Positions 1 through 54,128 of a stretch of 64,000 nt of DNA are shown here, piece by piece. Positions within the stretch are counted from its first letter, which is position 1; every line of letters begins with the position of its first letter. The notes beneath the pieces are model-generated. The model was not told where the DNA came from, did not search any database, and saw only the letters and a list, made by a program, of their open reading frames with translations. This stretch comes from Rhizophagus irregularis (taxonomy: Eukaryota). The stretch is from assembly GCF_026210795.1 (NCBI RefSeq), contig NC_089431.1, positions 868,001 to 932,000 of the forward strand, given 5' to 3'. Both the position numbers and the translations under genes were made by a program.

Positions 1-1
1 A

Positions 2-415
2 GACAAGTCTACAAAGTCCAAACATAAAGGAGTAAGCAAGAAGGGTATGAGTGATATGGCTAAGGACACATATTTCCCATCTTTAGGTGGAACTTTATTA
101 GATGATACAGTAGAAAAAGATGAAATCTTCGATCCTATGACTCAAGTATATCGGGACTGTCTGTTTGAAAATGGTGTCTTCTATGCCAAGAATGTGGGAA
201 TGCGTACAAAAAATCATGTAATATCACTAATCGAGTCAGAGAAGAAGGCATTATCCCCAATCGATACAAAACGCTGGATTTGGTCAGATGGTATATCCTC
301 CTTACCATTCGGACACTGGCGTATTCAAGTATATAAGAAACTTCTTGAGCGTGGTACAAGTCATGAGGCAGCAGAAAAAATAGCTATAGGGACCAGATTA
401 CCAGAGAAATATTAG
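2..415 (+). CDS. Protein-primed family B DNA polymerase, C-terminal part (5' truncated by window)
   Basis: Frame is open from base 2 (DKSTKSKHKGVSKK, a KxKGV motif). It ends in KKALSPIDTKRWIWSDGISSLPFGH, typical of Polinton/adintovirus pPolB C-termini. Confidence 0.8.
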   Translation, partial: DKSTKSKHKGVSKKGMSDMAKDTYFPSLGGTLLDDTVEKDEIFDPMTQVYRDCLFENGVFYAKNVGMRTKNHVISLIESEKKALSPIDTKRWIWSDGISSLPFGHWRIQVYKKLLERGTSHEAAEKIAIGTRLPEKY

Positions 416-487
416 AATGATATAGAATAGTTTAGTGATACTTAGGCATATATTAATAATAAATTATATTTTTTCCCGATAGTTAAA

Positions 488-841
488 ATGAAAGACGATC
501 CAATCTATGATATACATAGTGAAGAATATATCGATGACCTTATACATATCACAATTCAGAGAGGTCTCTTTAAAGATGTAGAGGATGCAATAAAAAGTAT
601 AAAGGCATTAGCTAAAATGGTCATAAGTTCTAAGACTAGTATTGATGCATTTATGAAATGCCCTGTACCAAACATTCCAAATGCCTTTTATGACTTAGTA
701 GAGGCATTTTATTATTCAATACTAAGAGAAAGACAATCATTAGCACATGACATCTAACAGATTTCTGGGAGGTGTCATATGATAAGATATTCTATGGAAT
801 TCTTCAGAATTCTTTGGAATTCCAAAATTTTTTTTTCGTAA
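488..841 (+). CDS. Hypothetical protein of the element, probably frameshifted near 750
   Basis: ORF 488-757. An adjacent frame continues LTDFWEVSYDKIFYGILQNSLEFQNFFS* to ~841. Confidence 0.4.
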
Positions 842-850
842 TAAGAACTA

Positions 851-1289
851 ATGTCTTTCAACCAGGTATACACTGAGCTACTAGTTATGTTACCAGCTTC
901 TGTAATACATGAGGCATGGATTCGTCTCACAACAAGGAAGCGTAGTCCACTATCTGTGTCCGATGCCCAGTGGAGTAAATTCCATGGTAGAGTTATTTTT
1001 GAAACATGAAGTAGAAAGATACCAGAAAAAATTAGCACGTCAGAGACTAACTGTTAAACAGACATATATGCCAAGAAACAGAATGACACAAGACATGATT
1101 AGTGAAAAGGTTTCCATACTTCAGAAGCACTTGCTTGAATATAATAAGGTTACTTTTGGCCGATTCATGCAGAACCTTACTAAAGAATATGAGAAATTGA
1201 TCAAGACAAATCATCAGATACGACATGAAATTGATACCATGAAGAAGCAAGTACGAAAAATAGAAAAAAAACTTGCTTCTATGTCGTAG
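851..1289 (+). pseudogene. Hypothetical coiled-coil protein of the element, frameshifted near 966
   Basis: ATG 851 gives MSFNQVYTELLVMLPASVIHEAWIRLTTRKRSPLSVSDA. A 1-nt shift joins SGVNSMVELFLKHEVERY... of ORF 909-1289. Confidence 0.45.
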
Positions 1290-1295
1290 TTCCCA

Positions 1296-1557
1296 TTATT
1301 CATCAAGAAATAGACGAATGGGTACTGTTGCTTTACTCAAATTTTGTGTGGACTGCGCATGGAATTTTTTTACTGTGCATAGACTTTGCATGGACTTTGC
1401 ATGGGAAATTTTAACTGCACATAGGCTTTGCATGGGCTTTACATGGGACTTTTTTACTGCACATGGATTTTTTCGTAAAAAATGTTGTTTAAGATTAGAA
1501 GGATATGGGAATTCCTTCCCACAATGCTGACAGGTACGATCAGCTAGTTTTTTTTTT
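1296..1557 (-). CDS. ATG-less C2HC/C2H2-type zinc-finger ORF (absent from the ORF track)
   Basis: Manual translation: KKKLADRTCQHCGKEFPYPSNLKQHFLRKNPC, then three 14-aa repeats (CAVKKSHVKPMQSL-like), stop at 1296. Confidence 0.65.
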
Positions 1558-2496
1558 ATAGGCTGGCTGGCTATCTACTGCAAAAACATTACGTTGTGCC
1601 TTATGTACAGAGAGAGGAATTGAGACAACCTGTCCATTTACATTTGCTTTGAACTCACCCTTTACTACAGGTTCCCAACCTGCACGATACTGCCACTGTG
1701 TACCAAGTATTAGCAATGATTTGTCCTTACCATTTTGATCCTTCTCGGTAGGTATAACAGAGAATTCGTCTGATATAGTGACTGTATTTGTACCTTCACC
1801 GATAGTTATGGGAATTTCATTGATAGTGCCAAGAGTTTTGGTTGATCCAGCTACACCATTAAGTGCATGTATATTCTTTCGATCTATTTTGAGACCTAGA
1901 TGCTTAGCTACATTTTCAGAGATTACTGAAGAGTCAGACCCTGTATCGATCATAGCATAGGGTATGCATACATTTTTGATTTTACAGGAAATGGTCGCTA
2001 CATCATTGGGATCATCTAACTGGAGAAAGTTGATTTCTAAGGGTCTTGGCCAGTATAGGTTTTTCTGCTGATAGGCACGTATTGCATGGTTCAGTATTTT
2101 GTCTTCTTTCTGTTCTACTTCAGATGGTACATCTGCAGGAGGAGTTGGTAATAGTGGAGTTGCTGTATTTACAGCATGAGCTAGAGGAGATAAAATGTCT
2201 TGCATATTTGCTGAAAGAACATCCCAGAGTTTCTTTCTTTCACTAACTGGATAGTCACTAACAAAATGGTTTAAAAGCGGGTCTTTCAGATTCTCATATG
2301 CTTGATTGGTATAAGCATTAATCTGTAGGAGGATTTCTTTAGGACATTGTACTGCTAGTGAAGCAATTATAGACTTCAGTGCTGCATGAAAGACTTCATC
2401 AGTTTTCTTGAGAATAGGTTCTCTTTTAGATTTGGAAGTACGGGATTTTTTCCCTTTATTTTTTACCGAAATTCCACGTTGACGAGTTTTTTTTTT
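1540..2496 (-). CDS. Retropepsin-type aspartic protease ORF
   Basis: AMIDTGSDSSVIS catalytic motif, flap GVAG, and LILGTQW. The frame stays open upstream of Met 2205 as far as the A10 run at 2487-2496. Confidence 0.85.
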   Translation of the reverse strand, partial: KKKTRQRGISVKNKGKKSRTSKSKREPILKKTDEVFHAALKSIIASLAVQCPKEILLQINAYTNQAYENLKDPLLNHFVSDYPVSERKKLWDVLSANMQDILSPLAHAVNTATPLLPTPPADVPSEVEQKEDKILNHAIRAYQQKNLYWPRPLEINFLQLDDPNDVATISCKIKNVCIPYAMIDTGSDSSVISENVAKHLGLKIDRKNIHALNGVAGSTKTLGTINEIPITIGEGTNTVTISDEFSVIPTEKDQNGKDKSLLILGTQWQYRAGWEPVVKGEFKANVNGQVVSIPLSVHKAQRNVFAVDSQPAYKKKTS

Positions 2497-4548
2497 ACAC
2501 TAAAGCAATTCTGAGGTTCATCCTCCTCCTCTTCTTCTTCAGTTAACTCTTCCTCAGTTTCTTCATCAGTTTCCTCATCACTTTCAGATTCTTCATAGTC
2601 AACTATGTGAGTATTGTTAACTTTCTTAGTACGTCTACTCCGTGAATACTTGTTTTTGGAATGACCTGTTCTACCACGCAGTTTGAGCAATGACGTTTAG
2701 GAGAAGATTTGGTTGTCTTTGTCACCTTTTTAACCTGACCAGTTCCAAAGTGATCTTTTCTTAGATGTTGTGTTTGTCCACCTAACTTTCTGGTAAGATC
2801 ACTCTCAATGAAAGTATGTATTGCTACAGGATTTGTTATGTCACCAGTATAGCCAAGACGTACTGCTATATCTGCAAGCTTTTCTAATGCAGTTCTATTC
2901 TGTGGTTGTTCTACTATAGTGGTTGGATTTTTCGCCCTCCACTTTCATACCATTTATTACGCAACTCATTAAAGAAAGCATCAAGATCAGCAGGAGCAGC
3001 AATTCTAACTCTCATTTCTAAAACATCAGGCAAATGATTATATAGATAAGGTAAAATTTCAGCATATACTTGTCCTTGTGCTAATGATCGAATCCTTTTT
3101 GCATATGTATCTGGTGTATCTATAGGAGAAAATGATTCATTCATGAGTGCTATTATAGCACCTTGATTTGTTCCAACCATCACATCTTTATATTTTCCTT
3201 GCAGCCAGTTTAGAAACTCTGGTTCTGTATTAATAGCAGCATTGGCATTATATGGATTATTTGCTGGAACAGGAATAAATCTACCAGACATTTTATTTTT
3301 CATAACACTACACCTCATAGCAGCATTAAAAACAGCAACAGCTAGTGGACGAGCCATTTCATTGACAGCTCTAAGCTTTTGATAATAAGAGTCTGGCGGC
3401 TCTTGTCCATCATAAAATGGTAACTGTGCAAGACCTGGTGATATAGTATGCATGACATCTTGTATTGTAGCCATGTTTGGAGGATTGTTTTGTAACGCTA
3501 ATATTTGTTGTTGTAAATTTAAAATATTTTGGGCCTGTGCTTGTACTTGGGTCTGTGAAATCCTATATTGTCTTTGCCAGTTTTGTGCCTGACGTATACA
3601 ACCTGCATGCCTTCTTCTCCAACGTTCTGTATCAGCATTATAGCGTAACATCAGCCTGTGTGCATTCCTTCTATGCTCAGCTATCTGATTCTGTTGGTTT
3701 GCTATCTGATTCTGTTGATTTACCAGCTGATTCTGCTGGTTTGCCAGTTGTGCATCTTTACGTCTATTCAGAAAACGTATACCTAGATTGGCTATTTGTA
3801 TTCCTGCAATACGTGCTTGATTCTGTTGTGCAACAGTTTTCCAGTGTCTACGAGCATTTGTCTCATATGTAAAATCATCACGTACTCTTATTAAGTTTTG
3901 ATTAAGAGCATTTGTACGATCTAAAGATTCTCCAAGTAATGTCTGCAATCCTTCTATCTGATTTAGTTGGTCTACACCAATTTCTTGCATTAGAGCAGCT
4001 TGACGAATAATTTCATCAAGACTTTGAGTGGTAGCATTAAAGACATCATCTATGTCTTGTAGAATTGGAATCCTATTCCGATCAAAAAATAGTCGAATCT
4101 CAGACACACAATCTGCAACTGCCCATCGGCGGTCTAGTATTCTTAGAATAGCATTGAATAATTCATTATCTTCATCCATTTCTATCTTTCCTTTACATAA
4201 AGATAATTCTTGAATGCGTTTTTTGAGTTTATCTACTATGTATTCAAGCTGAATGATACGTTCATCCTGGGTAACAAGTGCCTCTTCCTTTAACTCTAAG
4301 TGATCTCGATACTTTCCAAGTTCAACTAAAGTGGACTGACACTCTGCTTTTAACTGATCGATATCATCCTCACGTGAAACAAGATTTTTTTCAAGATAGA
4401 AGATATATTGTTCACATGCCTCTATCTCCTTTGTGAGTTTACGGATTTTCTCCTTATTGGAAATATTATTTGTTTCCTTTTGAACTAGCTGTTTGCGCAA
4501 ATCAAAGTTGCTATTTAACAAATCAAGATATGCCTGTTCAACTCCCAT
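2463..4548 (-). pseudogene. Gag-like protein (long coiled coil, capsid-like region, zinc knuckle, acidic tail) with two frameshifts (~2925, ~2676)
   Basis: ORF 2914-4548 contains LPFYDGQEPPDSY...TPDTYAKRIRSL (gag-like). It continues as ...EKLADIAVRLGY...RHCSNC/GRTGHSKNKY (degenerate CCHC knuckle) and then the acidic ORF ending at 2463. Confidence 0.6.
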
Positions 4549-5640
4549 TGATTCCTATTATTCCAATAGATTCTGATGAAGCACGAAATGTAGAGGTGAC
4601 TTCGGCTTTATGCAGAATATTCTACCAACCATCTGGATATCAGAGGACTGCCAAAAAGTTGTATGAGACATCACAAAATGCTGGATATGATTTCACCTTA
4701 GATGAAGTGCAGGATTGGCTTGAAAGACAGGCAGTACATCAAGTCCACAAACCTCATCCCCGATTTATCCCTCGTGTAAGTTTTAGTTCTATACAAGTTC
4801 CCAATGAAGTTCATCAAGCTGACATTTTGTATATGCCATATGACAAGGTTGGATATGTGACTTATCTTTTCTGTCTCAATATAGTTGATATAGCATCGAG
4901 GTATAAAGAAAGTGTCCCTATAGGTTCAACCAGTGTTAAAGATCGACAGGGAATCTTAACTTCTCATACTATTGCTCGGGCTTTTGAAAAGGTATATGAT
5001 GATACAACATGTCCGCTCACTTGGCCAAAATTATTGATTACAGATAGGGGTTCAGAGTTTAAAGGTGAGTGTGAAAAGCTGATGACTTCCCATAGTGTAA
5101 AGATTCAGAAGGCCAAGTCTAAGCGTACTGTTGGCATTGTGGAGCGATATAACCGTACCTTGGTTGAGAAACTATTTCCCTCTCAAGATGCATCTGACTT
5201 ACTAACTTTAGGTAAAACGAGATCTCGAGTCTGGGTAAAAAACTTACCTATTGCTGTAGAAAGTATAAATAACTCAGTGACCCAACAACTTGGTATATCT
5301 CCTGCTGTAGCTATAAAAAAATCACGAGTGTCTTCCAGATCTTCTTATCCTCGTGATGGACCTGTTGGGTATGAAGAAGAGAAACTACCACCTAATATAA
5401 GTGTAAGGTACTTACTTGAACCAAATGATCTGGAAGGTGGAAGACGTCGAGCAGGGAGATATGAATTGGTCACCTAAGATTTATCATATCCATATATCTT
5501 TAACACAGAAAAATCAACCAGTTTTGTACTGGCTTATTGATGATGATGGTAAAGAATCAGAGAGATCCTTTGTGAGGGAAGAACTTTTGGTTATACCAGA
5601 TGATACAGAAATTCCACCACAATGGGTACTTATGAATTAA
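4530..5640 (+). pseudogene. RVE (retroviral-type DDE) integrase, Polinton-like, frameshift at ~5455
   Basis: HQADILYMP, IVDIASRY, ITDRGSEF and VERYNRTL motifs. GGRRRAG/DMNWSPKIY is joined by a 1-nt shift into ORF 5416-5640. Confidence 0.88.
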
Positions 5641-6007
5641 GATAGTCTTCTACCTCATCATCTGCTTGGGAGTCTGTGAGGAAGTAGTCTTTTGCCAATT
5701 CATAGTATAACCTGTATAGCTTATTAATAGCAGACAAAAGTTTTGGTTCTCTGCTATACCAGGTCTTATAATTTTCCAAGATTTGCTGATACTTTGTCTC
5801 ATTAGGTAGAATAGATTGTGCTGTTTCAAGAACAAAATTTTCTGGTTCTTCTGCTTGACGCAATTTGATTATCCTTTGTTTGTAACATAACATGAATTTA
5901 CCATCTTTTGGTTTCTTGTAAAGGATGCCTGCTTTAATTACTGCAATTAGAGCTGACTCAATTTCATGGTATGTTGGCTTAGCTGGTATAGCTTGGGTAG
6001 ACATCAT
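5630..6007 (-). CDS. Hypothetical protein of the element
   Basis: 125-aa ORF whose stop overlaps the integrase end. Confidence 0.55.
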   Translation of the reverse strand: MMSTQAIPAKPTYHEIESALIAVIKAGILYKKPKDGKFMLCYKQRIIKLRQAEEPENFVLETAQSILPNETKYQQILENYKTWYSREPKLLSAINKLYRLYYELAKDYFLTDSQADDEVEDYLNS

Positions 6008-6059
6008 TTTTATATCATGTAAACTTTTTTTTAATTTAACTTATTTATACTTAATAAAA

Positions 6060-6296
6060 ATGATTGGAGAATATACTTGTGAATATTTACATAACACAGG
6101 AAAGCCTTGTGGTCATCCTTGTGTGAGGCCAGAAGGTTGTCGCATTCATTGGAAGACAAAATCACGCTTTCCTTGTGCTGTATGTGGTAAACCTACAGGT
6201 TCATCTAGTGGTCGATGTCAATCTCATATTGGGAGTTACTATCAAAATCGGTATGAAAATAGGCTTCGACAAAGAATCAGAGCAATTTATGATTAG
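6060..6296 (+). CDS. Small Cys/His-rich zinc-binding protein
   Basis: MIGEYTCEY...CGHPC...GCRIH...CAVCGKPT...RCQSH from ATG 6060. Confidence 0.6.
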   Translation: MIGEYTCEYLHNTGKPCGHPCVRPEGCRIHWKTKSRFPCAVCGKPTGSSSGRCQSHIGSYYQNRYENRLRQRIRAIYD

Positions 6297-6303
6297 GGTT
6301 AAA

Positions 6304-6742
6304 TTTTGGTTAGACTTTTGGTTAGACCTGATTGTCCCCAGATTTTTCGTATTGCAGGGGGAGCTTTACAATATGTCTAGTTGACTACCTGCTGTATATT
6401 TTTTGGTTAGACCTCGGTCGGATTTTTGGTTAGACTTGGTTAGACCTGTTGTCCCAGATTTTTTCGTATTGCAGAAAAAGCTTTACAATATGTCTAGTTA
6501 CCTTCCTGCTATACATTTTTTGGTTAGATCTGGGTCGGATTTTTGGTTAGACTTCACTGTCCCAGATTTTTTCGTATAGGAGGAAAAGCTTTAAAACATA
6601 TCTAGTTGCCTTCCTGCTATACATTTTTGGTTAGACCTGGGTCAGATTTTTGGTTAGACTTCACTGTCCCAGATTTTTTCGTATAGCAGGGAAAGCTTTA
6701 CAATATATCTAGTTGCCTTTCTGCTATATATTTTTGGTTAGA
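6304..6742. repeat. ~110-bp tandem repeat x4 (probable subterminal repeats)
   Basis: Recurrent ttttggttagac ... gtcccagattttt(t)cgtat ... aagctttacaatat.tctagtt units. Confidence 0.85.
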
Positions 6743-7651
6743 GCATGAATGGCTTAAATCATCGAATGAATCCCTTTTAGAGTATCATAAAAATAGTATG
6801 CCACAATGGATTGCTGAATTGTGCCATCGGTATTACAGACACTTCGTGTCCTTTATACCTTTGGCACTTATAAAGGCAATCTGATATAGCATAAAATTAT
6901 GATACCCTGGAATGGATTCATGCGTGGTAATAATGCCTAGAAATAAATGATGTTAATCTTATCTACAACGCTTGGGGGGTTCTTTTTAGCTATCAAGTAA
7001 TAACATATCAGGAATCAAGGTTAGGTGGTCTGGGGATAGAAAAACAGGTATAGTGTTATCATATCAGAAAACAAGGCTAGGTGGTCTGGGGGTACACTAA
7101 ATTATGGTTAGACCTATGTGATAACCGCTGTCCCAGAACCTCCAAGATTGTCCTACTTCCTTTTTACTTGTACTTTAATACTAACGATAATATCCATATT
7201 TCTTTTACTCCTTTTACTGTTTCTTTAACTCTTTTTACCTTAATACTAACAATAATAACAATATTTCTTTTATCTTTATATTTAATACTAATGTTATTAT
7301 AGCTGTTTCTCTTCTTTTTACATCTAATAATATTGTTACTCTTTACTCTTTCTTTTTTTTACTTTTATGTATTCTGTATATATTAATAAATACTTGTAAT
7401 TTTTTATGGTTTAATAAAATTATATCTAATAAAATATACATTATATAAACAGAAAATGATGAAGTATTATTTATCAAAATATTTTGAAACATTATGAAAT
7501 ATTAAGTTGTGTAAAATCACAGAATATTACGAATTATTAAATTATAGAGCATTACACATCATAGAATTTTGAAATATTTTAAAAAGTTGCGAAGTATTAC
7601 ACAGTAAAATTACAGAATATTACGAATCATAAAATTACGAAACCTTACATA

Positions 7652-10403
7652 CACTAGTCGAAATAAGGCAAATCAGCTAAAAATTGGATATCCAATTTTA
7701 GGTCGAATTATGGCTGAAATATGTCCAATTTTTACAAAAAAATATATTCTAATTGTTATTTAATTGACTGCCAATCAGATGTACTTCGGAACTTAAATCG
7801 GATATAAATCAGAACTAAATCATACTAAATTCGGACAGTCAATCAGATGTACTTCAGAACTTAAATCAGACAAAAATCGGACTATTTTTTTCTGAATTTA
7901 TTTCAATTTTTATTATCAAATTTATTAAATGTATTTATTAATTAAATGCTTAAAAACTTTATAATTATATTATTATTATTAGCATCTATCTAAATTACAA
8001 ATAAATATTGCTAATTCAAAATTATAATAAAATAATAATAATAAAATAAACCATGATTCGTACTTACGAATCTTGGTTTTGGTTTATCCATTCATCGGAA
8101 ATCCACCCAAGTCTATAAAAAAAGAAAAGAACGGTTATTAGTAATCGTTCATTAATATTAATAAAAAAAATTTAACTAAGATTCGTATATACCTACGAAT
8201 CTTGATCTTTTTCCGTTCTCCATAACTTGGAAGCCCACCCGAACCTATAAAATAAAAGAAAGGAACGGTTAGTACCCGTTCCAAAATAATAAAAAATAAA
8301 AATAAAAAATAAACCAAGATTCATACTTACTTACGAATCTTGGTTCCTTTTTTTCCGATCTTCGGAAGTCAACCTGAAACCTAAAAAATAAAAGAAAGGA
8401 ACGGTTAGTAAACCGTTCCAAATAATAAAAAAAAACAAAAACAAAACCAAGATTCGTATATACTTACGAATCTTGGTTCTTTTCTGTACTTCAGAATTCG
8501 AAAATCCACCCGATCCTAAAAAAAAGAAAAGAACGGTTATTAGTAACCGTTCATTAATAATATTAAAATAAAAAAGAAAAAAAAATCAAGATTCGTAATT
8601 AGTAGTTACTTACGAATCTTGATTTTCCATTCTTCAGAATTCAGAAATCCACCCGATCCTAAAAAAAGAAAAAACGGTTATTAGTAACCGTTCGTAATAA
8701 TAATAATAAAAAAAAATTAAACCAAGATTCATACTTACTTACGAATCTTGGTTCCACTTTTTCCAAAGATCGGAAGCCCACCCAAACCTAAAAAAAGAAA
8801 AGAATGGTTATTAGTAACCATTCATTAATAAAATTAAACAAAACAAAAAATTAAAACCAAGATTCGTATATACTTACGAATCTTAGTTTTTTTCCGTTCT
8901 TCGGAACTCGCAAACCTAAAAAAGAAAGAATGGTTATTAGTAACCATTCATTAATAAAATTAAAAAAAAACAAAATTAAAACCATGATTCGTATATACTT
9001 ACGAATCTTGATTTTTTTCATTTTTCAGAACTCAGAAGCCCCTCCTGAGACACCGAACCTATAAAAATAAAAGAAAAAGAACGGTTAGTAATAACCATTC
9101 CAAATATTAAAAAAAGAAAAAAAAACTAAGATTTGTAATACGGAATCTTAGTTTTTTTCCGTTCTTTGGAAACTAACCCAAACGGCCGAACCTATAAGAA
9201 AAAGAAAGGAACGGTTAGTAACCGTTCATATAATAGGAAAAAAAATAAAATAAAAAATAAACCAAGTTTCATACTTGTACTTACGAAACTTGGTTCTTTC
9301 CATTCTTCGGAACTCGGAAGCCAACCCGATCCTAAAATAATAAAGAAAAAAAGGTTATTAATAACCGTTTGTTAATATTACAAAAAAAAAACAAAAAAAA
9401 TTAAACCAAGATTCATTTATTTACGAATCTTAGTTCTTTTCCATTCTTCAGAACTCGGAAGCCAACCCGATCCTAAAATAATAAAGAAAAAACGGTTATT
9501 AGTAACTATTCGTTAATATTACAAAAAAAAACAAAAAAAATTAAACTAAGATTCGTTTACTTATGAATCTTAGTTCTTTTCCATTCTTTAGAACTAGAAA
9601 GCCCACCCGAAACCTATAAAAAAGAAAGGAACAGTTAGTAACCGTTCTGAAATATTAAAAAAAATAAAAACCAAGATTCTTAAGAATTTTGGTTCTAAAT
9701 CCCCTTCCCCTTCCCCCTTTCCCTATTTTTTACCTTAAAGTCCGGTTTTGTATTAAGGCCGGCGTCCTCTTATACGTCCTACAAAAAAAAATAATGAAAA
9801 GAAACGTTAGTTTGTTTCTTAAATTAACAAAACTTCACTTTCCCGTTTTTTACCTTAAAGTCCAGTTTCTTGTTAAAGCTGGTGTCCTACAAAAAAAAAC
9901 AATGAAAAGAAATTTGTTTCTTAAATTAAAAAAAAAATTAAAAAAAATATGTAAGTTTCGAAACGAAACTTATATTACTTCCAAAAAAAAGAGGCAGAAG
10001 AAAGGTGTGAGAAAAGGAGGAGAGCGAAAGGGGAAGCAAGGGAAGGATGAAAGAGAAAGGAAAGGACAATAGGGGAAGGAAGGTGAAGGACAAAAGGACA
10101 GGAAAAGTAGGGACGAAGTGAAGTGAAAGGAAGGGATGAAAGGGGAAAGTTTAAAAAAGATCCTTTTTTAAACTTTGATACACGTAACACATGATGTTTA
10201 ATTAGACTATTCGACCAATGTCTAATCGTAGATCATGGTTGAATTTTTAATTGAATATAGGCCGGCCTTTTTTGACTAGTGAAATTGGAAATCAGCTATG
10301 CCGAATGTCATCTGATATACAGACGATCATCAATTATTAGCCAAAATTTAGCTGAAATAAGGATGATTTGCCTTATTTCCGATTTGCCTTATTTCGACTA
10401 GTG
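7652..10403. mobile_element. Non-autonomous CACTA (EnSpm/CMC) DNA transposon
   Basis: Perfect 23-bp TIR CACTAGTCGAAATAAGGCAAATC (7652-7674 / 10381-10403), 3-bp TSD ATA on both sides, no transposase ORF. Confidence 0.88.
8045..9695. repeat. Tandem array of ~13 units (~125-145 bp), each with two palindromes
   Basis: aaccaagattcgta..tacgaatcttggtt and gaacggtta(t)tagtaaccgttc alternate, separated by A-tracts. Confidence 0.9.
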
Positions 10404-11128: not shown

Positions 11129-13530
11129 TGAGGACCCCGAACAATATATATATAGGTCAGATAAAAAATTCAAAATTTACTAAGGTCAATAAGCAAATAT
11201 TTTTCATGTCTGCTAAGCAAACTTTTATCTAACCCATAAATTTTTTACACTGCTAAGCAATTTATTTTATGACATATATATATTTATATATAATTTTTTT
11301 TATAAAATATGTATATAAAAAAAACTAAAAAAACAAAAATTTTTGAAATAAAGTATGGATAAAGTTATTATTATTTTTTTGTAATATTACAACTTATAAA
11401 TGTTTCTTATTACAGTTTACGACATAAATATTCAGAATTTTTATTTTTATGCATAAAGGAGTGCTGTCACACCAAGTCTTGTGCAACCAAAATAATAATT
11501 AAAATGGAAGTTGATCAGCCCTTTTTAAACATAAATATAGCGTGAAAAATTCTCACCTGATTGTTTATCAGCAGCAAAATAAAATTATGGCACCCACTTC
11601 AGTATTTGAAATGCAAAGGTTGACTGTTAAGGAGCTATGGAATAATAATATACGAAAACCCTCTGAAATAATTAAAATGACTGGTTTTCCAAAGTCTACA
11701 GTATATGACATTATCAATCGTCTAAAAAAAACAGGAAGTGTTGAACACTTACCCGTTCCTGGTCGTCCTCTTGTTCTGATACCAAAAAAACGTTGATATC
11801 TTGGCCGTCTTCTTAAAAATGATAATGCAACAACTTCAGCTTTAATGACAACAAAGCTGAATAATTTGTATCCAAATCTTAATGTATCAACCCGAACTGT
11901 ACAATGTACTCTTAAAAATAAACTTAATTATATTGTTTGTAGACCATGGTCTGTTCCTCTTCTTAAAGAAAGTCATGTTGAAGCTCGTCTTCAATGGGCC
12001 TTAAATCACATCCAAGATGACTGGACTCACACAATTTTTTTGGATGAAAGTACATTTCAGACGTTTCGTAATACTCAAATTGTACGTTACAAGGCTGGAA
12101 ACCCACATCCAGTACATCCTATGGTAAAACATCCATATAAGGTTCATGTTTGGGGTGCATTTTGCCGCCAAGGGCCAATTGGAGTTGCATTATTTACAGA
12201 AAACATGAATTCTGCTAAATACTGTGAAATCCTTCAATCTCAACTACTTCCTAATGCTTATCATGCTGGTTATGGATGGAATTTTCAGCAGGACAATGCG
12301 CCAATGCATACCGCGAAGCTTACTCATCAATTTTTTGTGATTAATAATGTTCCGGTTATTGATTGGCCTGCAAACTCACCTGACTTGAACCCTATCGAAA
12401 ATTTATGGGCGATTCTTAAAGGAAATGTAGAAAGAAGGGTTAATAATTGGGTTATGAAAAAAAAATCACTTGGTGCTAATGATTTTCAAGGCATAATTCA
12501 GCAAGAATGGGATAATATTGATAAAAATCTCTTCTTTAGTTTAGCAGATAGCATGTCAGATCGGATTAACATGGTCATAGAAAATAATGGTTATACGATA
12601 AATTACTAACTTTTAAAGTATGTTTATCTGCACATCTTAAGCTATTAATGGTATAAATTTGAAATAAAAAAAATAAAATTTATTATGTTTTTACATATTG
12701 TGATAAAATTCTGGATATTTATGTCGTGAACTGTAATATTTCGTATATCTGTTCTGTGACTTCAGAGCGTAATTTAGGCACTTTAGTCAAAGGAAACATC
12801 TAAAACCTTCTTAAGTAAAGTTGTTCAGCAGGTTCGAATCTACTTACATATAAATTTTTATCACGATTGAATAGATATTTATGGATTTATTCATGTTTTT
12901 TGTAACGCCACCAATACGCGGAATTTTTATTTTTAAAATTTACTGTAAAATTTGTCAAAAAAAATATTTTTAAAAAATTTTCTAAGTAAAAATGAAATAA
13001 CTTTTACTGATTATTACAAAAATTATAGTGTAAAATTATAAAAAAACAGAAAAACACTTATTTTTCTTGCTCTCATTTTTAATATATATTTTTTTACTGT
13101 TACACGGACGCGTATATGATTTATAATTTACGCGGACGCGTATTTGTTTTATCAAAAACATGATACACAATCACGTCTAAAAATGATTCCTGTAATACGT
13201 ATACAATTAACTTATTCTTTGTATTAAAAATAGTAAATTGTTTTTACACAAACATGTTTATAACTTTGTTTACATATTTTATTAAATTTTTTTAATGTGA
13301 AAAATGTAAATATATATTATATTATATATATATATTAAAAAAATCTATCCTGCTACGCAAATATATATCTGACTATTAATAATTTAATACTCTGCTACGC
13401 ATAATTATATCTGACTATTTAAAAATTATGGTATCAAATAAGCAATAATAAATCTCACATAGGAAAAATTTTTATATGTTGGTTAAGCAAACTCAAAACC
13501 TACCTTTATATATATTGTTCGGGGTCCTAG
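11129..13530 (+). mobile_element. Tc1/mariner DNA transposon (full length, inactivated)
   Basis: TIR core aggaccccgaacaatatatata at both ends, TA at 11127-28 and 13531-32, internal transposase. Confidence 0.92.
11587..12609 (+). pseudogene. Tc1-family DD34E transposase with in-frame stop at 11794-11796
   Basis: HTH N-terminus; FLDES, FQQDNA and SPDLNPIEN with 34 residues between D and E. ORFs 11542 and 11845 are in the same frame, split by TGA. Confidence 0.92.
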
Positions 13531-40829: not shown

Positions 40830-42829
40830 TTACAATGGTATGCCATCAAGAAAAGCTTTATTGCCTTCTCTAGTAACAACAATTTGAACATTACCCAAAA
40901 TTCTTGAAACGAAACCTCCTTCACAATAAGCAAAATAAAATTCCCATTTCTTTTTGAAAATTTCGACATCATTTCGAGTCATATTGGGCCAACTTTTTAA
41001 CAAAGCAGGGTGAATGTGTTCATCAAATACTGAAAGAAATCTTTCACGCCACAAACGCAATGTACGCGCGTAATGAGGTCCAATGTTTTCAATATCATCA
41101 ACTATAAGGTTACCTTTTGAACCCTTGTTAATCGCTTCTACTAAGGTTGTCACACTTGGAACATGACATCCTAAAAAGTTGAGAAGTAAAAAAAGATTTT
41201 TTAAAAGACATTTTCATGTGAATGAACCAATTTTTCTTAAATTGTTCGAATCTTACCTGGGAAAATATATTTTCTTATAAAATCGACCTCTTTGCAATAT
41301 CTATCATATCTCGTTTCAGGCATAGTAATAACTTGAAATACACCAACACCATTTTTTTCGTTCAAAAATTTGTCACAACATTCAAAATACGTTTGAAGAT
41401 ATTCATAACCAACAGCTTCAATCATTTCAATACTAATGATTTTATCAAATTGATGAGAAGCAGGTAAATTACGATAGTCACATAACAAAACAGTTATACG
41501 ATCAGAAAATCCTGCATCTTCAATACGTTTTTCAGCGAGATTTTTTTGTTCAATTGAAAGAGTTAAGCTCGTAACACGGCATCCTGTTAGTCTTACGGCC
41601 TAGTATTAAAATGCAATTAGTAATACGAGAAATTAGTAGATATACTTTCTTTTGAAAAAAATAAATAATAAAAATACCAAATATTAAATACCTCGATAGC
41701 AAGAGAACCCCAACCAGTACCAATTTCCAAAACGTGATCATCTTTAGTGATTCTTGCTTTTTTGATCATCATTCTCAATTTTCTATATTGAGCTTCTTCT
41801 AAACTTTCCTCTTCATTTTCAAACACGGCACTGGAATAAGTCATGTCACTACTTAAGAAGGCAGCAAACATTTCATTGCTTATATCATAGTGGGCGGAAA
41901 TATTGTTAATGGCGTTGGAAATTGTATTTGCAAAGCGAAGGTTCATAACATAGTTTATAGAACTGAAAACGTATGAAGGAACTGTTGTAAGTTCGTCGAG
42001 GTGAGACCTATTCGCTACGAAAATCTGAAGAAAGGAAGTTGATTCAATATCCCCAAAAAATCAAGATAAAAAACCTAACAATTTATAAATTTATAAATAC
42101 CTTAATAAGAGTTACCAAGTCGTCGCATGTTACATCTCCTAGCATATACGCTTCAGCGTATCCCTATTAATTAACATTAGAAAAATAAGGTGACAATGAA
42201 AAATGGTTAGTATTTGTCAAATAAAGTTGGACAAATATATGATCGAATACTTTGTTGTGCAGATCTGAAATCATGTGAAATAAATATATGCTAAACAAAA
42301 AAAAAATATTGTACAACAAAAATAAAGAATACTTCGATGTGTAATACATCTTGTCAAACTGTGTAATATTAAAGCGAAATTAATTTAGAAATGATCATAT
42401 AACTTACCAAATCACCTAATATTAACAAACGAACCCAAAAAGAGTCGTTTATGATTTTGATTTCGCTCTTTAATTTCGAATCTTTAGGGCCAAATTCATA
42501 AATACAATCTTTACTAAGTACGCGAAGATGACCGACGTCAATTCGTGACATCAATGAAAGAACAGTATTTCGAGCTAATTAATACCATAATAACAAACAA
42601 TAATAGTAATTTTTAAATTAGTAAAAAAGACTGTTGAAAAGCCATCTTCGAAAATTGAAGAATTTTAGAAAGAAAAAAAAAAAAATTTAAAAATTTTTTA
42701 GTTGAATATACCAAAATGGAGTAAAGGCTCCCATGAGTTTGAAACGACGACCTCTTTTGCATATTGAAAGTAAGAGTCGACAGTCGAAATAACTTTGCTT
42801 GATGTATGATTTTTTTTTATATATGACAT
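40830..42829 (-). CDS. Cyclopropane-fatty-acid-synthase family SAM methyltransferase (UfaM/Cfa-like), multi-exon
   Basis: NISAHYDISNEMF...DMTYSSA, VLEIGTGWG, SIEMIEAVG, FIRKYIFPG, HYARTLRLW and WEFYFAYCEGGF; ATG at 42829. Confidence 0.92.
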
Positions 42830-43903
42830 GTTTAATTAATGTTTCTTTCGTAAGAGAGGAAACTCTTAGCAGAAAGACTGAAAGGTAAATTTGATGGTAT
42901 TTATATATGCACAGATGTAATTATTATGTATTGTTTAAAAGTAAGTTCGAAAAAATTTTAAGACGATGTACTACATTGTATTTCAGTTCATTTTTCGATT
43001 ATACCAAGTTTGTGAAATGAATGAGCTAATCTCTTATATCTTTGTATCCATTACAAAGATTATAAATCAAAATAGTATATACGAGTTACTTTTTGGTAAA
43101 TATGGTAAATATGATTTATGCAGAAATTTGTTTATGTTTATATTTTAATAAAATTGAAACGGTTTCATTTGTAACACGAAACACCGGATAAATCATTAAC
43201 CACCACTCTCAAATCGTATGACAAATTGATGATAAAGTTCCATAAATGTGATACAACGCGCGAAACGCGTTAAATTAATATATCTTATACATTTCTCATT
43301 ATCAAATTAAGAAACGATTGCATGAACGAGTAAAATTTAGAAAGAAGAATAACAATGATAACCTTTAATACTCGGTGAGAATGTCAATAATAGACTAGTT
43401 GATTATTTTTTTTTAATAGAAGATAGAGGCTATTAACTCAATAGATTTAATTAATATTATCTAGTAAATACTCCAAGCAATATATGCCAGATATGCCGGT
43501 AACCTCATGGTAATTGCCGACTGGTGTAATGGTATGTAGATCCAAATTATTTTAATAATTGATAAACCAGGATTAAGGTTAACGAAAACCATAATTAGCT
43601 ATGATTTTTAATTATTGGGAAAGAGAAACATTTTAATTTTTCCAAATTAAGTGTCATCGGAAAAAAAATAATGAGATAAGGTTACAAATAATGAATTCTC
43701 GGGATACTCGGAATTGCGGGTATCGCGCGGACAATAATTACTCGTATTTCCCAATTATGATTTATGACAAAGTAATATAAATATGACAGAATAATATAAA
43801 CAATGCTGTTGTATAACACTACCGTAATTTTCATATAAGCTCACCGCAGCTTTTATTTCTGGAAATCTATCTTTCTCGTTTTATTACTGATAAGGAGGAA
43901 AAA

Positions 43904-46809
43904 ATGTCAAAGATAGATATATTTTTATATGTTGTTATCGCTATTAGTACATTATTTTATATATTTAAAGTACCATTCTTTATAAATAATATATTTGAAA
44001 TATTATGTTTAATTATTATTATTATATTTTATTATATTATAAATAAAATATTAGAATCATCATTAATTTCATTAAATCAAGTTAATACCCGACATAAAAT
44101 ATATTTTTGTAAAACTTATCATTCTAGATTTTGGCCTGTTAAACATTCTTTTAAATATCCTGTATTATTTGTCGGAGTTGATTTAGATATATTAGAACAA
44201 CAACAATATAAAAAAGATGGTCATAGTTTGTAAGAATTTTATTTATTGTTTGATATACTTGTATTCTTTTTTTCGAATATTTTGCTTTTAATTAACTTTA
44301 TTTTCTGGATAGATTTGATATCGGATATAATAATAGTTCAATTATATTTAATATAAATGATGATGATTATCTTGGTAAAATAAATTCCGGAGATGATAAT
44401 TTAGAAAATCCGTATATACAAAAACCAAAAAATCAAATTAAATCAATCAAAGAAAAATTATTATGGCATATTAAACAACATGTAAGTTTTATTATTAATC
44501 TGCTTATCCTTCACTTCGATGATTATTGTTAAATAATTTTATGTGTAATTGTTTTTTAATTAGAATATCCCGACAGATGACTTAAGTAGATTTGAATTAG
44601 TTACGATGCCGAGATTTTTAGGATATGCGTTTAACCCGGCTAGTTTTCATTATTGTTACAGCAGAAATAATGAACTTAAAGTTGTAATATTAGAAATTAA
44701 TAATACTTTTGGAGAAAAACATTTACATGTTTTAAGTAGAGATACTGTTACTGATCAAGAATCACGGAACGGGTAAGATTCTTTCTTAATAATTAATGGA
44801 TGTAATTTAATATCTAAATTTAAAATAACTTTTATCTTTTTAATAGTTATGATATGAGTTTTACCATGAAACGAGCGTTTCATGTATCCCCATTTAATGA
44901 TCGTTTAGGGACTTACAAAATGCTTTGTAAAGATCCATCATCGGGTTATTTAGATATGAGGATTGTAATGTACGCAGGTCAAGATAATAAATCACAACTG
45001 AAAAAGAAAATGGTTGCTACAGTATCAGGACCTTCATATATATTATCAATGAATAGCTTATTATATGCTATAATAAGATATCCTTTTGATATATTTTTGA
45101 CATTTCCAAGAATATTAAAAGAAGCATATAAGTTACATTATAGCAAAAAGTTAGGGATTTATCATAGACCAATTCCTATTGAAGGGACTGTTGTTAAACT
45201 TGAACCAAATTCGATTGAATTGTATGTATTCTTATTTTTCAGTTTAAAAGTTTTTAATTTTGAACTTAATATATATCTAATCTTTTTCATTTTAAATAGA
45301 CACGCTCAAGAAATTATTACAAGTTATTTACGTTACTTAATAGAAAGTTCGTTAGAATCAACCTATATTACGATAAATTTACCTGACAAGAACAAATTAC
45401 CAATAATAATTCGTCCATCAAATCTTCCGATAATATCATTCTCAAACACTATAACAATAAATCTTCATGATTATTCATTTTTTACAAATTTATTAATAAA
45501 TCAAAATATTTATAGAGCTTTATTAATAAGTTATTTTGAAAAATCTTGGGATTGTGACGAATTAGGATTATTATTAAAATTATTTTTTAACAATAGATTA
45601 GATATAGAAAATAAAGTAGATAATAAGAAGGAACCTTTACATAGAGATTATAAAATTAAATTAAGTAATTTTGAAAATAGAATATCAATATTAAGAAGAT
45701 GGTATTGGAAAAAATCATTCAATAATCAAGAAAGTTCGGGTGAAAGAGCTAAAAAAGAGTTTGATCAACTATTACAAAAAATGTGGCCTCCCATAGGAGT
45801 AGATAGAGATTTTATTGCTTCTATAGTACAAAATGATGTTTGTTTTGATATTAGATTGGATGCTACCGTACGTATTTTTTAAAATTTTTTTTTTCTTTCC
45901 CTTTTTTAAGCTAATGTTAAGGTAAATTCTTTTTAGATAAATTCACATGAGGAAGTAGCAGTAGCGTTGAGAGATTTATTTGCAATAAATAGCGAAGGGA
46001 ATACAATAGCATTATTTGGTTATACACATCTTTACATGTTATCACCATTTACATTTCCTTCTTCAGCAACAATATCAAATATTTCACCAATCATAGCGTC
46101 AAAACTTCACTTACTTCCATTTCCACCAAGATATCTTGCCTATGAAAATAAAGAACCACTAAAACATCCAATAGATAAATTTATACATTCAAGCAAATTA
46201 TTTACTAATAAAGATAAATTAAAATATACTTGGATGATGTTATTAATGGTTTTGGGTTATAGTTTTGATGCTGGGTTTTGGCAAATGATAACGGGATTTA
46301 TTGAAGGTCCTAGAGGTAATCTTTATTTTGCAGAAAAATGGTTATGGGAAGGTATCGTGGATCTATTGAAAAGGTATGAAAGAAAGGATAAGGGTGAAGA
46401 AGAAGATAAGGATGAAGTCAAGAATGAGGATGAGGATGAGGATGAAGAACATTGGGCTGAATGTGAGAGTGATATTGAAAGTGATAATAGTATCAGTATT
46501 AAGAGTTCAAATGAAGAGAGAAAGAAACAAGTATTTGATGGCTGGGAGGTTGTTTATGAAAGGATAGGTATGTAGTATTATTTTTTTTTTCCGTCATATT
46601 TTCTTTTTTCTCAGCTAATTTGTTTATTTCATTTTTAAAAAGGTAATAATGATAAATTGCAAAAAGTTAAACCAACGCCTACCCCATCTTTACCATCACC
46701 ATCAACTAAACCTACAGAGGTTAATCCTATGATAGAAGAAGATAAACAACAAAGATTATGGCTATTTACAAAAATTTTTAGAGAAGTGATATTATTGAGA
46801 ACAGATTAA
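43904..46809 (+). CDS. DUF1365-family protein (UfaO-like) with long C-terminal extension, multi-exon
   Basis: HSRFWPVKHSFKYPV, TMPRFLGYAFNPASFHYCY, LEINNTFGEKH and KRAFHVSPFN. Confidence 0.85.
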
Positions 46810-47107
46810 AAATAATATTTTATAGAATTTTAAATTAATTAATTTAGTTTAATGAGTGAAATTTTAATAGATAAATAGATAAAATACTCAATGACTGCTT
46901 AATTATAAAGATTTATATTATGAAATTACGATAATTACTCATAAAATGTAATACAACTTTATAGCAATAAAAATTTTGTTTCATTAATTAATTTATTCAT
47001 CAAAAAATCTTAATACAAAATTACAAATTACAATATACTATGCTAATACAAATTACAGATGTTATTATTTTATATTACACAATTAAATAAATGTTCTTTG
47101 TCTAATT

Positions 47108-49151
47108 TTAAAGCCTTAAAACATTATCATTATCAGTATTATCATTTTTTTTACCGCTACATTTACCTTTTGCTTGTTTTTGCAGAAGACGTCGTTTCTT
47201 TCTCTGTCTTCTATTTTCTTTTGGTTTAACCTTCAAGTGAGAAGAAACATTTCCCTCTAATCTTTCCATAACCATATCCATACCACCATGATTAAAGATA
47301 TTCATCAAAGTTTCATTATAAGTATGTGCAGAACCAGAATCTTTAGCTATTTTCTTTATCTTAAACTTATTTACAATGCTATCCAATTCACCAGGTCCTG
47401 ATTCAGGATTATGTTTCATAGCGAGATTCGTAATGGCTAATTTTTGTATAGCATCTGCCATCATACTTTTATATTGCTTATCAGATTCAGGAGAAAGATC
47501 GGGGATTGGCCATTCTTCATGAGGCACATGTCTACGTATACTATATTCTGTTGTCTCTATTTCATTATTGCTTGATGGATTCGGATCGATTTCATTTGAA
47601 ATAATTGTGGTTGTTGTTTGTGAATCTGATTCAACTAAAACTTCTACAGGATGTTTTCCTGTATTTGATGATGTTGAAGCAACTGTTTGTACTGCCTGAT
47701 TATCAGAAACTCCATAAAGTGTTGAAAAATTAGTGTTTAATGTGGGAAGTATAGGGCTATTAAATGTCTGTTTACTCCCTTGAGGTGATACGGAAAAGTT
47801 GGAACTTCCGTTTGTCGATTGAGTTATTGAATTAATAAAGCCTCCTTGATTAAATACAAACTTGTTCAAATGTTCCGTTATAGATAACGAAGGTGTTTTA
47901 GTATCTATTTTGTATTCAGGTAATTGTACCGCAGAATTCAAAATTTTCTCAAGATCTACTTTGGGCCCATTTGAGGATTTATTTTTTTTGACTTTTTTAT
48001 TCTTCGTCTTTTTACATTTTATTGCGGGTAAATTGCTGCCAATTTGAGAATTTACAATTGACATTTTTTCTTCACTAAGAGATTTAGCAGTAGAGTGAAA
48101 TTTATCACTATGAAAAGTGGTCCTATATAACCCTTGCCGTCCTATTTCTAAAATATGTGTAAATAATTTTATTTACATAAATATCATTATAAACAACATA
48201 ATCACCTTACCTGCACTTTTTAGCTTTTCATAATATTCAGCTGCTAATGTCTCCAAATTAATAAAATCCGTCCCATGAACACCTGCTAATAACAGAAATA
48301 ATATAAAATTTAAAAAAAAAAGAAAAATTAATTTACGAATCAAATAATTTTATTTCGAAAATTTTACCCGAATTGAGTCTTCTCGACAAAAAGTTACTTA
48401 ATAGTTCAAGTAATACACAAGGATTATTATGATAAGATTGTAAATGTGCACTGTCTTCTTGGAACATTTCTTGATATTTATTTGAAAAATCAATTACAAT
48501 ATCAAAAATATCAAATGTATAATTATATAAGTTAAAAAATTTAATCACTTTTTCAACATAATTAGGTTCTCTTGCTTGTTGCTCTTTTGGTATATTATTT
48601 ACCACAGGTTCAAGTCCGGTATCAGTAGTCCAAGACTTTAATTGATTCGAAACAAATGTCGCAGGTTGTGGAATGTCATAATCAATTTCCATATCAACGA
48701 GTTCATCATCCGAATCATCTATTGAAACCGTAGCATTGTGAGAATCTTCTTCTCGTTCTTTGTTTTTACCTTTGTCATACACCAAGGATTGATTACTGGC
48801 ACCAAATGAATCAGATTCGTTTAATTGTACGGTATTCATATTAACAACAGAAGAAATGGTACCAAAGTCGAGATCAGTACTATATTCTCGTTCTTTACCT
48901 TTATCTTTATTAAACGCAACAAGTCTATTATCAGTGCTCTTCAATTCAAACTCTACTTCAGAATCTGAAGACGAAAGCACGATAATTTCATTATCAGGGA
49001 AAGTGTTATTATTGGAATTCACAGGAAAAGAAGGAACATTATTTCCCAATTCCTTTTGTGAACTTTCATACGCTTTCGGCTGATTATTACATAGTTGTGA
49101 ATAAAAGAACTTTGAGGTAGAAGAACTAGAGCTTCCTGGTGAAAAATCCAT
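47108..49151 (-). CDS. Hypothetical, largely disordered protein, multi-exon
   Basis: ORFs 48333-49151 and 47108-48064 are linked by short GT-AG exons near 48210-48285. S/N/D-rich with a basic C-terminus. Confidence 0.6.
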
Positions 49152-49384
49152 AGAAAAATTTCTTATTATCCTAAGGCATGTGTTTTTTTGACCATCTTAT
49201 AAAAAATATATATGATAACGTGATTTGATTAAGCCATATTTTTGGGGACGAAAATATGATTTTCCGGATTTTCATAAATTTGAACCGTGTGTAAATTGAA
49301 TGCAGCTTAAAGGGTCGCGCAATTTTATATAAATTGACAGTGAATTACCCCGAACTAAATTTTTTTTTTTTTTCTGCTCAAAAA

Positions 49385-51263: not shown

Positions 51264-51778
51264 CTTAATAAGTAATATATGACATGAACAAAAGATTTTC
51301 TTAAAACTAATTTATTTTATAATTGATACTGTTAAATTATAAAAGATATAGTCACATCTTTTCTTTGATAAATTTTTTTATTTTATTTTATTCTGTAAGA
51401 GTGAAATCCGGACTAACTTTGTGTAGGAAAAATACTAGAGGTAATAAAAAGTGGTACTAAATACAAAGTAAGAATAACTAACTAAAGTAAGTGTTCTCCA
51501 TGTAAGGGGACTTTCTTTGATAAATAGAGTTAATAAATTATACCCGATTTTCCATAAGAAACTCAATCACGTGTATGTATATCACGTGATTGCAATCATT
51601 TGATATACTTATTTTTTTTACTTTTTCAATGAATAAATAAATGAGAAACTCTTTCCGACGATCGTAAAATACCAAAAATTCACAGAAAAAATTTTCGTTA
51701 AAAAACATATTTCTTTATAGACAAGTACCACTTTTTTCACCAGTTTTGGTCTCTACGTTCTTCTCGGAACATTATCAT

Positions 51779-54013: not shown

Positions 54014-54128
54014 TTGTTGAAAATAACTCCTCAACAAATATTTGGACTCACTTACGATTTCTCCCTTTTTTGATTTTAACGTTTAAATTGTTTTCTACAC
54101 ATTGTTTTTATTAAAATTATTTTTTTTT

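What the first reader, a model, noticed from the sequence alone, without database searches (positions are those of the whole stretch)
1..6296. Polinton-like element carrying a retroviral-style Gag-protease module
Seen: pPolB and RVE integrase on the + strand flank a minus-strand Gag-like ORF (coiled coil, capsid-like segment, zinc knuckle) and a DTG retropepsin, with no RT or LTRs visible. Packing is tight: the gag and integrase ATGs overlap, and the cassette's last stop is 6 nt from the convergent gene's stop. That argues for an integral module rather than a nested LTR element. Established: canonical Polintons use jelly-roll capsids and an adenain cysteine protease. Inference: a chimeric self-synthesizing element that may use a Gag-type shell.
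Basis: partly seen in the sequence, partly recalled or inferred. Interest (0 to 1): 0.82.

Follow-up and report, generated by a model that had tools for sequence, protein, structure and literature searches.

The report
Fungal Polinton with retroviral-type Gag
This is a decayed copy of a large self-copying DNA transposon of root-symbiotic fungi whose whole family carries a retrovirus-style capsid and protease gene pair where other members have a DNA-virus shell, and which likely uses that borrowed capsid to package itself.

Summary
The window's first ~7.15 kb is the right part of a Polinton/Maverick of Rhizophagus irregularis (Gag 97%, integrase 98% identical to its proteins).

The gag-pro cassette is integral:
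- A head-to-head integrase sits beside gag in 21 of 25 informative metagenome loci (CA identity down to 34%).
- No LTRs or RT motif were found.
- dN/dS is 0.10-0.21.
- Read depth is flat across polymerase, cassette and integrase.

The CA region is predicted (pLDDT 90) to have the retroviral capsid fold: the top 38 structural matches are all Gag capsids. This copy is broken by four indels.

Known Glomus Polintons lack jelly-roll capsid and adenain, and this one's estimated size matches Polinton-1_GI. Prior art: a 2021 figure legend already labels Gag and retropepsin on a PolB element. Packaging is untested, integrase and CA trees disagree, and some relatives keep an A32 ATPase.

The parts
1..415 (+). 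[quoted passage not shown]
   Evidence: 76% identical to the end of the L001 polymerase, which matches DNA_pol_B_2/EndoVII clusters
488..757 (+). 89-aa ORF of unknown function
   Evidence: no Pfam or PHROG hit; no tblastn hit in 80 loci
851..1289 (+). conserved accessory ORF with a coiled-coil end, split near 970 in this copy
   Evidence: homologues in L008, L012, L032, L058, L060; laid contigs show 2 gap letters over this stretch
1296..1550 (-). small C2H2/C2HC-type zinc-finger ORF overlapping the protease end
   Evidence: homologues in L001, L002, L015, L024, L059, L060, L067
1548..1557 (-). second A10 run at the protease/zinc-finger junction; offset is -1 in relatives but +1 in this copy
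   Evidence: slippery heptamer near 14 of 14 protease ends
1540..2496 (-). retropepsin frame (basic linker, helical region, DTG at 1939-1947), in the -1 frame relative to gag
   Evidence: Pfam Asp_protease_2 above cutoff
2487..2496 (-). A10 slippery run 21 nt before the gag stop; predicted programmed -1 shift
   Evidence: 34 of 36 gag ends carry it, against 119 of 1760 background windows
2463..2925 (-). Gag C-terminal part: small helical hairpin, CCHC knuckle (2646-2689, broken here), acidic tail
2926..3474 (-). Gag capsid (CA) domain, two helical lobes
   Evidence: AlphaFold2 pLDDT 90; VIA top 38 rows all Gag CA, best Z 11.1; Atlas Retrotrans_gag 0.95
3475..4548 (-). Gag N-terminal long helical (coiled-coil) region
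   Evidence: model of the L001 relative: helices 3-123, 131-157, 164-350
4530..5640 (+). rve/DDE integrase, head-to-head with gag, broken near 5455 in this copy
5630..6007 (-). conserved 125-aa ORF convergent on the integrase, unknown function
   Evidence: homologues beside an integrase in L004, L007, L012, L031, L046, L047, L055, L067
6060..6296 (+). small Cys/His-rich ORF
   Evidence: homologues in L007, L031, L055, L067
6210..7157 (.). probable right terminal inverted repeat, with four 107-bp tandem repeats (6292-6730); both limits are inferred
   Evidence: depth at 6269 is over twice the interior, loose ends at 7160; repeats; GC drop after 7000. The left end and a TSD could not be seen

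Best explanation
This is a decayed copy of a Glomeromycotina Polinton (protein-primed polymerase plus DDE integrase) whose family stably carries a retrotransposon-type gag-protease module, which likely replaces the jelly-roll capsid and adenain as the particle-forming unit. Shown: gene content, linkage across diverged relatives, purifying selection, conserved A-run junctions. Predicted: CA fold. Inferred, step by step: (1) most ribosomes make Gag, while a minority slip -1 on the A-run (or read a slipped transcript) to make Gag-Pro, and more rarely Gag-Pro-zinc finger; (2) Gag would co-assemble around the element's nucleic acid through the CCHC knuckle, perhaps helped by the zinc finger, without needing a DNA pump; (3) the retropepsin would mature the shell; (4) the particle would shield polymerase-made DNA plus integrase and carry them between nuclei of the shared fungal cytoplasm.
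For: Linkage: head-to-head integrase in 21 of 25 loci with at least 1,150 nt upstream of CA; among 17 loci with both, integrase identity falls to 29% and CA to 29%. Polymerase on the same contig in L001, L012, L030, L036. Contigs bridge polymerase to protease and gag to integrase, and depth is flat over 1-6000 in 4 of 4 runs. No LTRs in the window or 8 of 8 relatives. No RT YxDD motif in any ORF of 150 aa or more in 80 loci plus the window's first 7 kb. dN/dS 0.10-0.21 in 7 of 7 gag/pro pairs, like integrase and polymerase. CA fold. Slippery site at 34 of 36 gag ends, -1 the longest onward frame in 32 of 36. Polinton-1_GI lacks MCP, penton, ATPase and protease (Krupovic 2014 Table S1).
Against: No particle, transcript or self-association was shown; the one run guessed to be RNA spans introns and is DNA. 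Integrase and CA trees are incongruent (Mantel r 0.05, p 0.27; AU p 5e-8 and 0.003), so the module is exchanged rather than co-inherited, or some metagenome contigs are chimeric. One lineage (L057, L058, L068) has no integrase next to gag. An A32-type packaging ATPase persists in 3 of 80 loci (L037, L050, L058), which is odd if no DNA pump is needed. Foldseek gave no match at E 0.001 or better, and Z values of 5-11 are modest for a helical protein. No conserved 3' stimulatory structure (mean z -0.28; no covariation). No complete element was seen, so a jelly-roll gene upstream of the polymerase is excluded only by size arithmetic.
Confidence: 0.6

Rival explanations
1. The module is integral but does not package the genome. 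Gag forms an Arc-like RNA/protein carrier or a replication scaffold, or acts as a dominant-negative or protease weapon against resident LTR retrotransposons or host defences, while the DNA moves as a capsid-less transposon.
For: The best structural matches include domesticated Gags (PEG10, Arc) and the Ty1 restriction factor Drt2. Nine capsid-less Polintons are known. A ~350-aa coiled coil precedes CA. An invariant Met at the CA start could give a separately translated CA form.
Against: The complete CA-knuckle-slip-protease layout is kept across the family. Restriction factors usually need CA alone (recalled).
Confidence: 0.27
2. gag-pro is a separate, non-autonomous retro-derived unit (TR-GAG-like, name recalled) that repeatedly inserts into or recombines with Polintons.
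For: Incongruent integrase and CA trees. Gene order varies between lineages, and one lineage lacks the adjacent integrase.
Against: No LTRs, no RT and no longer Gag-Pol relative among 210 candidates (weak). Start codons of gag and integrase lie within -19 to +57 nt in 17 loci where both were placed. Flat depth, and no cassette-skipping joint among 15 of 44 joints shown.
Confidence: 0.08
3. The elements also encode a highly diverged jelly-roll capsid outside the regions seen, and Gag is an accessory.
For: A32 ATPases in 3 of 80 loci and Glomus/Rhizophagus A32 genes related to Maverick ones. The left end was not seen.
Against: Polymerase start to right end is about 10.9 kb; adding one ~0.95-kb TIR gives about 11.9 kb, the size of MCP-less Polinton-1_GI (11,954 bp). 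No unassigned ORF above 415 aa appeared in the flanks of the longer loci inspected (outputs 31 and 38 were cut).
Confidence: 0.05

Closest known systems
Polinton-1_GI / P_Gi1.1 and P_Gi1.2 of Glomus (Rhizophagus) intraradices (Krupovic et al. 2014, PMC4028283, Table S1 read in full)
   Same: Same host genus. Estimated size about 11.9 kb against 11,954 bp. No MCP, penton or adenain; ATPase absent in one family and present in another, as among the loci here.
   Different: The table does not mention Gag, retropepsin or frameshifts.
PolB element labelled Matrix/Capsid/NC/Pro in Starrett et al. 2021 (PMC8502044, Fig. 5 legend; section 3.4 read, figure not visible, supplement cut)
   Same: [quoted passage not shown] Rhizophagus PolB is mentioned elsewhere in the paper, so this may be the same family.
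   Different: A legend label only. The text seen names no host for it and gives no family survey, fold test, frameshift or discussion.
Canonical Polintons/Mavericks (Polintoviricetes, adintoviruses)
   Same: pPolB, rve integrase, probable long TIR, A32 ATPase in some relatives.
   Different: No double jelly-roll MCP, penton or adenain in the regions seen; Gag CA and a retropepsin instead.
Ty3/Gypsy and Ty1/Copia Gag-Pro, retroviral gag-pro, domesticated Arc/PEG10/PNMA
   Same: CA fold, CCHC knuckle, DTG protease, -1 slippery junction; two stacked shifts resemble the gag-pro-pol layout of some retroviruses (recalled).
   Different: No RT, RNase H or LTR. The integrase is a separate, opposite-strand Polinton gene. 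Gag starts with ~350 aa of coiled coil.
Caulimoviridae and spumaretroviruses
   Same: Gag-derived shells that hold DNA (recalled); their coat and Gag proteins appear among weak BFVD matches.
   Different: Their DNA is made by reverse transcription, not by a protein-primed polymerase.

Membership tests
Polinton/Maverick | [quoted passage not shown] | tested here: met
   (whole gene seen in relative L001; only the C-terminus lies in the window)
Polinton/Maverick | retroviral-like DDE integrase | tested here: met
   rve E 5e-6, below Pfam cutoff; relatives annotated PF00665; D-D-E present
Polinton/Maverick | long terminal inverted repeats | tested here: inconclusive
   depth more than doubles by 6269, loose ends at 7160; left end not available, no genome held
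Polinton/Maverick | 6-bp target site duplication | not testable with these tools
   left flank lies outside the window; no genome held
virus-type Polinton (Polintoviricetes) | double jelly-roll MCP, penton and adenain | tested here: inconclusive
   none among ORFs scanned; window plus L001 cover polymerase start to right end; no complete element seen
virus-type Polinton (Polintoviricetes) | A32-like packaging ATPase | tested here: inconclusive
   no tblastn hit in the window; present in L037, L050, L058
retroviral/retrotransposon Gag | two-lobed helical CA fold | tested here: met
   predicted model pLDDT 90; top 38 VIA rows are CA, first unrelated row Z 4.9; Atlas PF03732; Foldseek best E 0.066 and 0.005
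retroviral/retrotransposon Gag | CCHC knuckle followed by a retropepsin | tested here: met
   the knuckle is broken in this copy
retroviral/retrotransposon Gag | assembles into particles | not testable with these tools
   needs expression and electron microscopy
LTR retrotransposon (nested element) | flanking LTRs | tested here: not met
   window and 8 of 8 relatives (three had under 400 nt downstream)
LTR retrotransposon (nested element) | reverse transcriptase downstream of protease | tested here: not met
   no YxDD motif in ORFs of 150 aa or more in 80 loci plus the window's first 7 kb (most loci are short); protease is followed by a zinc-finger or short ORF
programmed -1 frameshift gag-pro | in-frame slippery heptamer before the gag stop with protease in the -1 frame | tested here: met
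   34 of 36 heptamers, 32 of 36 -1 frame
programmed -1 frameshift gag-pro | 3' stimulatory RNA structure | tested here: inconclusive
   mean z -0.28 over 32 junctions; a 7-bp candidate stem 89% paired in 14 hand-picked sequences, no covariation

The most novel reading that the evidence does not exclude
Arbuscular mycorrhizal fungi host a widespread lineage of Polinton-derived virus-like elements that swapped the DNA-virus morphogenetic module (jelly-roll capsid, adenain) for a retroviral one (Gag, retropepsin, double -1 frameshift) and package protein-primed, non-reverse-transcribed DNA in a Gag shell: a cross-realm chimera of replicon and virion.
Probability: 0.45. Interest if true: 0.92.

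Novelty: new variant of a known kind. Interest (0 to 1): 0.78.

Why it matters
Glomus Polintons are listed as capsid-less, and Mavericks are reported as uniquely expanded in Glomerales and recently active in R. irregularis. A conserved Gag-protease module would explain how they manage without jelly-roll genes. If Gag packages the DNA, it would be a retroviral-type shell used by an element with no reverse transcriptase, bridging two virus realms. It is directly testable by expressing an intact natural Gag and by looking for particles in a culturable model fungus. The A-run junctions are also spliced over in public gene models, so many 'aspartyl protease' genes annotated in these fungi are probably Polinton genes.

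Tried and rejected
- No host genome is held, so complete copies, the left end and the TSD were not examined.
- IMG/VR: no Gag relative; one distant integrase, L081, in an unrelated contig.
- Reverse test (how often the integrase has gag beside it): not run on metagenomes, the single scan being spent on gag. Four contig lengths shared between searches are only a hint.
- Pfam and PHROG do not recognise the Gag or the polymerase core. PDB sequence searches gave coiled-coil noise or nothing useful. Phage tblastn hit only endonuclease VII.
- Search for longer Gag-Pol relatives: 4 hits of 210 candidates, all Gag-Pro models; weak evidence.
- Co-divergence of integrase, Gag N-terminus and CA was not found.
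- No 3' frameshift structure is supported.
- Complex prediction of CA copies and the deep profile search for remote Gag donors were not available, so self-assembly and the donor lineage stay open.
- Earlier findings of this scan: none.
- Rejected: that the gag/pro offset is a lesion of this copy (conserved at 34 distinct junctions); a nested LTR element.
- Kapitonov and Jurka 2006 is not held; Pritham 2007 was not read.
Full report
HOST AND OBSERVATION. The Gag-like ORF is up to 97% and the integrase up to 98% identical to proteins named Rhizophagus irregularis; other named hits are R. clarus, R. diaphanus, Glomus, Diversispora and Acaulospora. All described parts are present. The ATG overlap (19 nt) and the 6-nt stop gap are real. 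The window's 137-aa polymerase tail is 76% identical to a whole 1,392-aa polymerase in locus L001, which the ESM Atlas groups with DNA_pol_B_2 plus Endonuclease_7 clusters at 0.98; Pfam itself saw only the endonuclease VII insert.

THIS COPY IS DECAYED. Gag is broken near 2920 and 2676, the integrase near 5455, and an accessory ORF near 970. L001 has an uninterrupted 697-codon gag. Laid contigs differ from the window by 3 gap letters over the gag breaks, 1 over the integrase break and 2 over the accessory ORF. The gap positions were not displayed, so assigning them to the breaks is my inference. One contig spanning 1817-3480 has only those 3 gap letters, which implies the gag/protease offset is shared with the other copies.

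THE CASSETTE IS INTEGRAL. One metagenome scan with a Gag alignment gave 105 confirmed relatives, of which 80 were returned. Of 25 loci with at least 1,150 nt upstream of CA, 21 have a head-to-head integrase; two shorter loci have one too. The four without are L039 (about 120 nt upstream of gag, uninformative) and L057, L058 and L068, one rearranged lineage, in which L058 carries an A32-type ATPase. Some loci are near duplicates (L004/L005, L047/L050). The polymerase is on the same contig in L001, L012, L030 and L036, and a second polymerase type, read from motifs only, is in L047. It lies on the protease side in some loci and the integrase side in others. Most contigs are too short to show it. 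No direct repeat flanks the cassette in the window or in 8 of 8 relatives. No RT motif occurs in ORFs of 150 aa or more. In 4 of 4 runs, depth is roughly flat over 1-6000. It is about ten times that of a single-copy gene of the window in X5 and X9 and about sixty times in X8; the tool warns that depth is not copy number. Contigs bridge polymerase to protease (33-2482; 1-2629) and gag to integrase (4126-5300). None of the 15 joints shown, of 44, skips the cassette. dN/dS is 0.10-0.21 in 7 of 7 gag/protease pairs, against 0.13 for integrase and 0.16 for polymerase.

AGAINST SIMPLE CO-INHERITANCE. Over 17 loci, integrase and CA distances do not correlate and each alignment rejects the other's tree. 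The Gag N-terminus tracks neither clearly (16 loci). The layout is kept while the parts are exchanged, or some metagenome contigs are chimeric.

GAG FOLD. Residues 359-541, folded with 66 sequences, give pLDDT 90 and two helical lobes. VIA-align against 48,161 chains ranks Gag capsids in all of the top 38 rows: PEG10 CTD Z 11.1, rmsd 2.3 over 82 residues; Copia Z 9.7 over 152; Arc, Ty1, MLV, RSV and HIV follow. The first unrelated row is Z 4.9. The tool cautions that such Z values are modest for helical proteins; the strength here is the consistency. Foldseek's listed PDB rows are all CA but none reaches E 0.001 (BFVD best E 0.005). Atlas neighbours are Retrotrans_gag/Ty3_capsid clusters. A full-length model of the L001 Gag shows about 330 residues of long helices before CA (no globular matrix domain), then a small hairpin, the knuckle and a disordered acidic tail. 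CA begins at a Met invariant in 44 of 44 sequences: an internal start or a cleavage site.

EXPRESSION LOGIC. Of 36 gag ends with a knuckle (35 loci plus the window; 34 distinct junctions), 34 have an A8-11 run with an in-frame slippery heptamer within 30 nt of the stop, against 119 of 1,760 background windows. The -1 frame is the longest onward frame in 32 of 36 (at least 90 codons in 27), +1 in four. All 14 protease ends examined carry a second heptamer; the script found a zinc finger in the -1 frame in 5 of 14, and L001 shows one as well. In the window that second offset is +1. No stimulatory structure is supported, so transcriptional slippage or sliding on poly-lysine codons are alternatives (recalled).

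SIZE. The L001 polymerase gene (about 4.18 kb) plus window 416-7157 gives about 10.9 kb. Adding one TIR of about 0.95 kb gives about 11.9 kb, against 11,954 bp for Polinton-1_GI, listed without MCP, penton, ATPase or protease; P_Gi1.2 has the ATPase only. This is arithmetic across two related elements with inferred ends, not a sequence match.

MECHANISM. Most likely (0.6) Gag is the element's particle protein: a regulated Gag to Gag-Pro ratio, a nucleic-acid-binding knuckle and a maturation protease are the parts of a retroviral-type assembly system (established knowledge), and they occur where the jelly-roll module is missing. Packaging, the cargo and movement between nuclei are inferred. The retained ATPase in 3 of 80 loci and the long coiled coil are unexplained. 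A non-packaging role is the main rival (0.27).

LITERATURE. [quoted passage not shown] The unread part of that supplement may name the host. Krupovic 2014: passages and Table S1. Passages only: PMC11952901, PMC8647823, PMC5751038, PMC11296320, PMC3014272, PMC6431247, 10.64898/2026.06.19.733378 and 10.1101/2025.06.16.659975; none of these passages describes Gag in Polintons. Ten searches of an open-access library showed no family-level description, fold test or frameshift report; most listed papers were seen as titles only and subscription papers are not covered.

VERDICT. Real, and integral to a diverse family of mycorrhizal-fungus Polintons. The gene combination has been labelled once in print; its family-wide conservation, predicted CA fold and frameshift architecture appear undescribed in what I could search. 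New variant of a known kind, interest 0.78.

Noticed in passing
window 8020-9700: Array of ~135-bp diverged tandem units, each with internal inverted repeats; very high depth in the laid runs.
   Followed up: no
window 11845-12609 (+): Tc1/mariner-type transposase: DDE_3 above cutoff, HTH_Tnp_Tc3_2 just below.
   Followed up: partly
window 51668-60109 (+): Three long ORFs that read like a non-LTR retrotransposon (ORF1, endonuclease-RT, RNase H); named from recalled motifs, not scanned.
   Followed up: no
window 40830-51263: Host exons that read like a cyclopropane fatty-acid synthase, a neighbouring conserved gene and an amine-oxidase-like gene close together (recalled motifs).
   Followed up: no
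L047:4246-5484 and L058:5337-6326: Coiled-coil ORFs ending in a hydrophobic, membrane-anchor-like segment in two rearranged lineages; a possible envelope- or movement-like accessory.
   Followed up: partly
L047:7256-9259, L008:4793-5527: F-box domains; in L047 the F-box is in frame behind a second, different polymerase-like region.
   Followed up: partly
L037:541-1731, L077:1-315: Extra Cys-rich, nuclease-like region fused to or following the integrase in one lineage; no Pfam hit for the L077 part.
   Followed up: partly
window 1-6000, run X8: Element depth is about 60 times single-copy depth, against about 10 times in X5 and X9: amplification bias, strain difference or extrachromosomal copies.
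   Followed up: no
window 3474 and 4179 (-): A Met opens CA in 44 of 44 aligned Gags, mostly in strong initiation context (A at -3 in 22 of 25 distinct contexts), and a Met commonly opens the second helical block: nested starts or cleavage sites.
   Followed up: partly
window 3481-4371: A low-depth joint in 3 of 4 runs skips most of the Gag coiled coil (29 letters on the short side): possibly an internally deleted copy.
   Followed up: no
P0001-P0031: Public gene models fuse gag and protease by different 'introns' across the slippery junction, probably annotation artefacts.
   Followed up: partly
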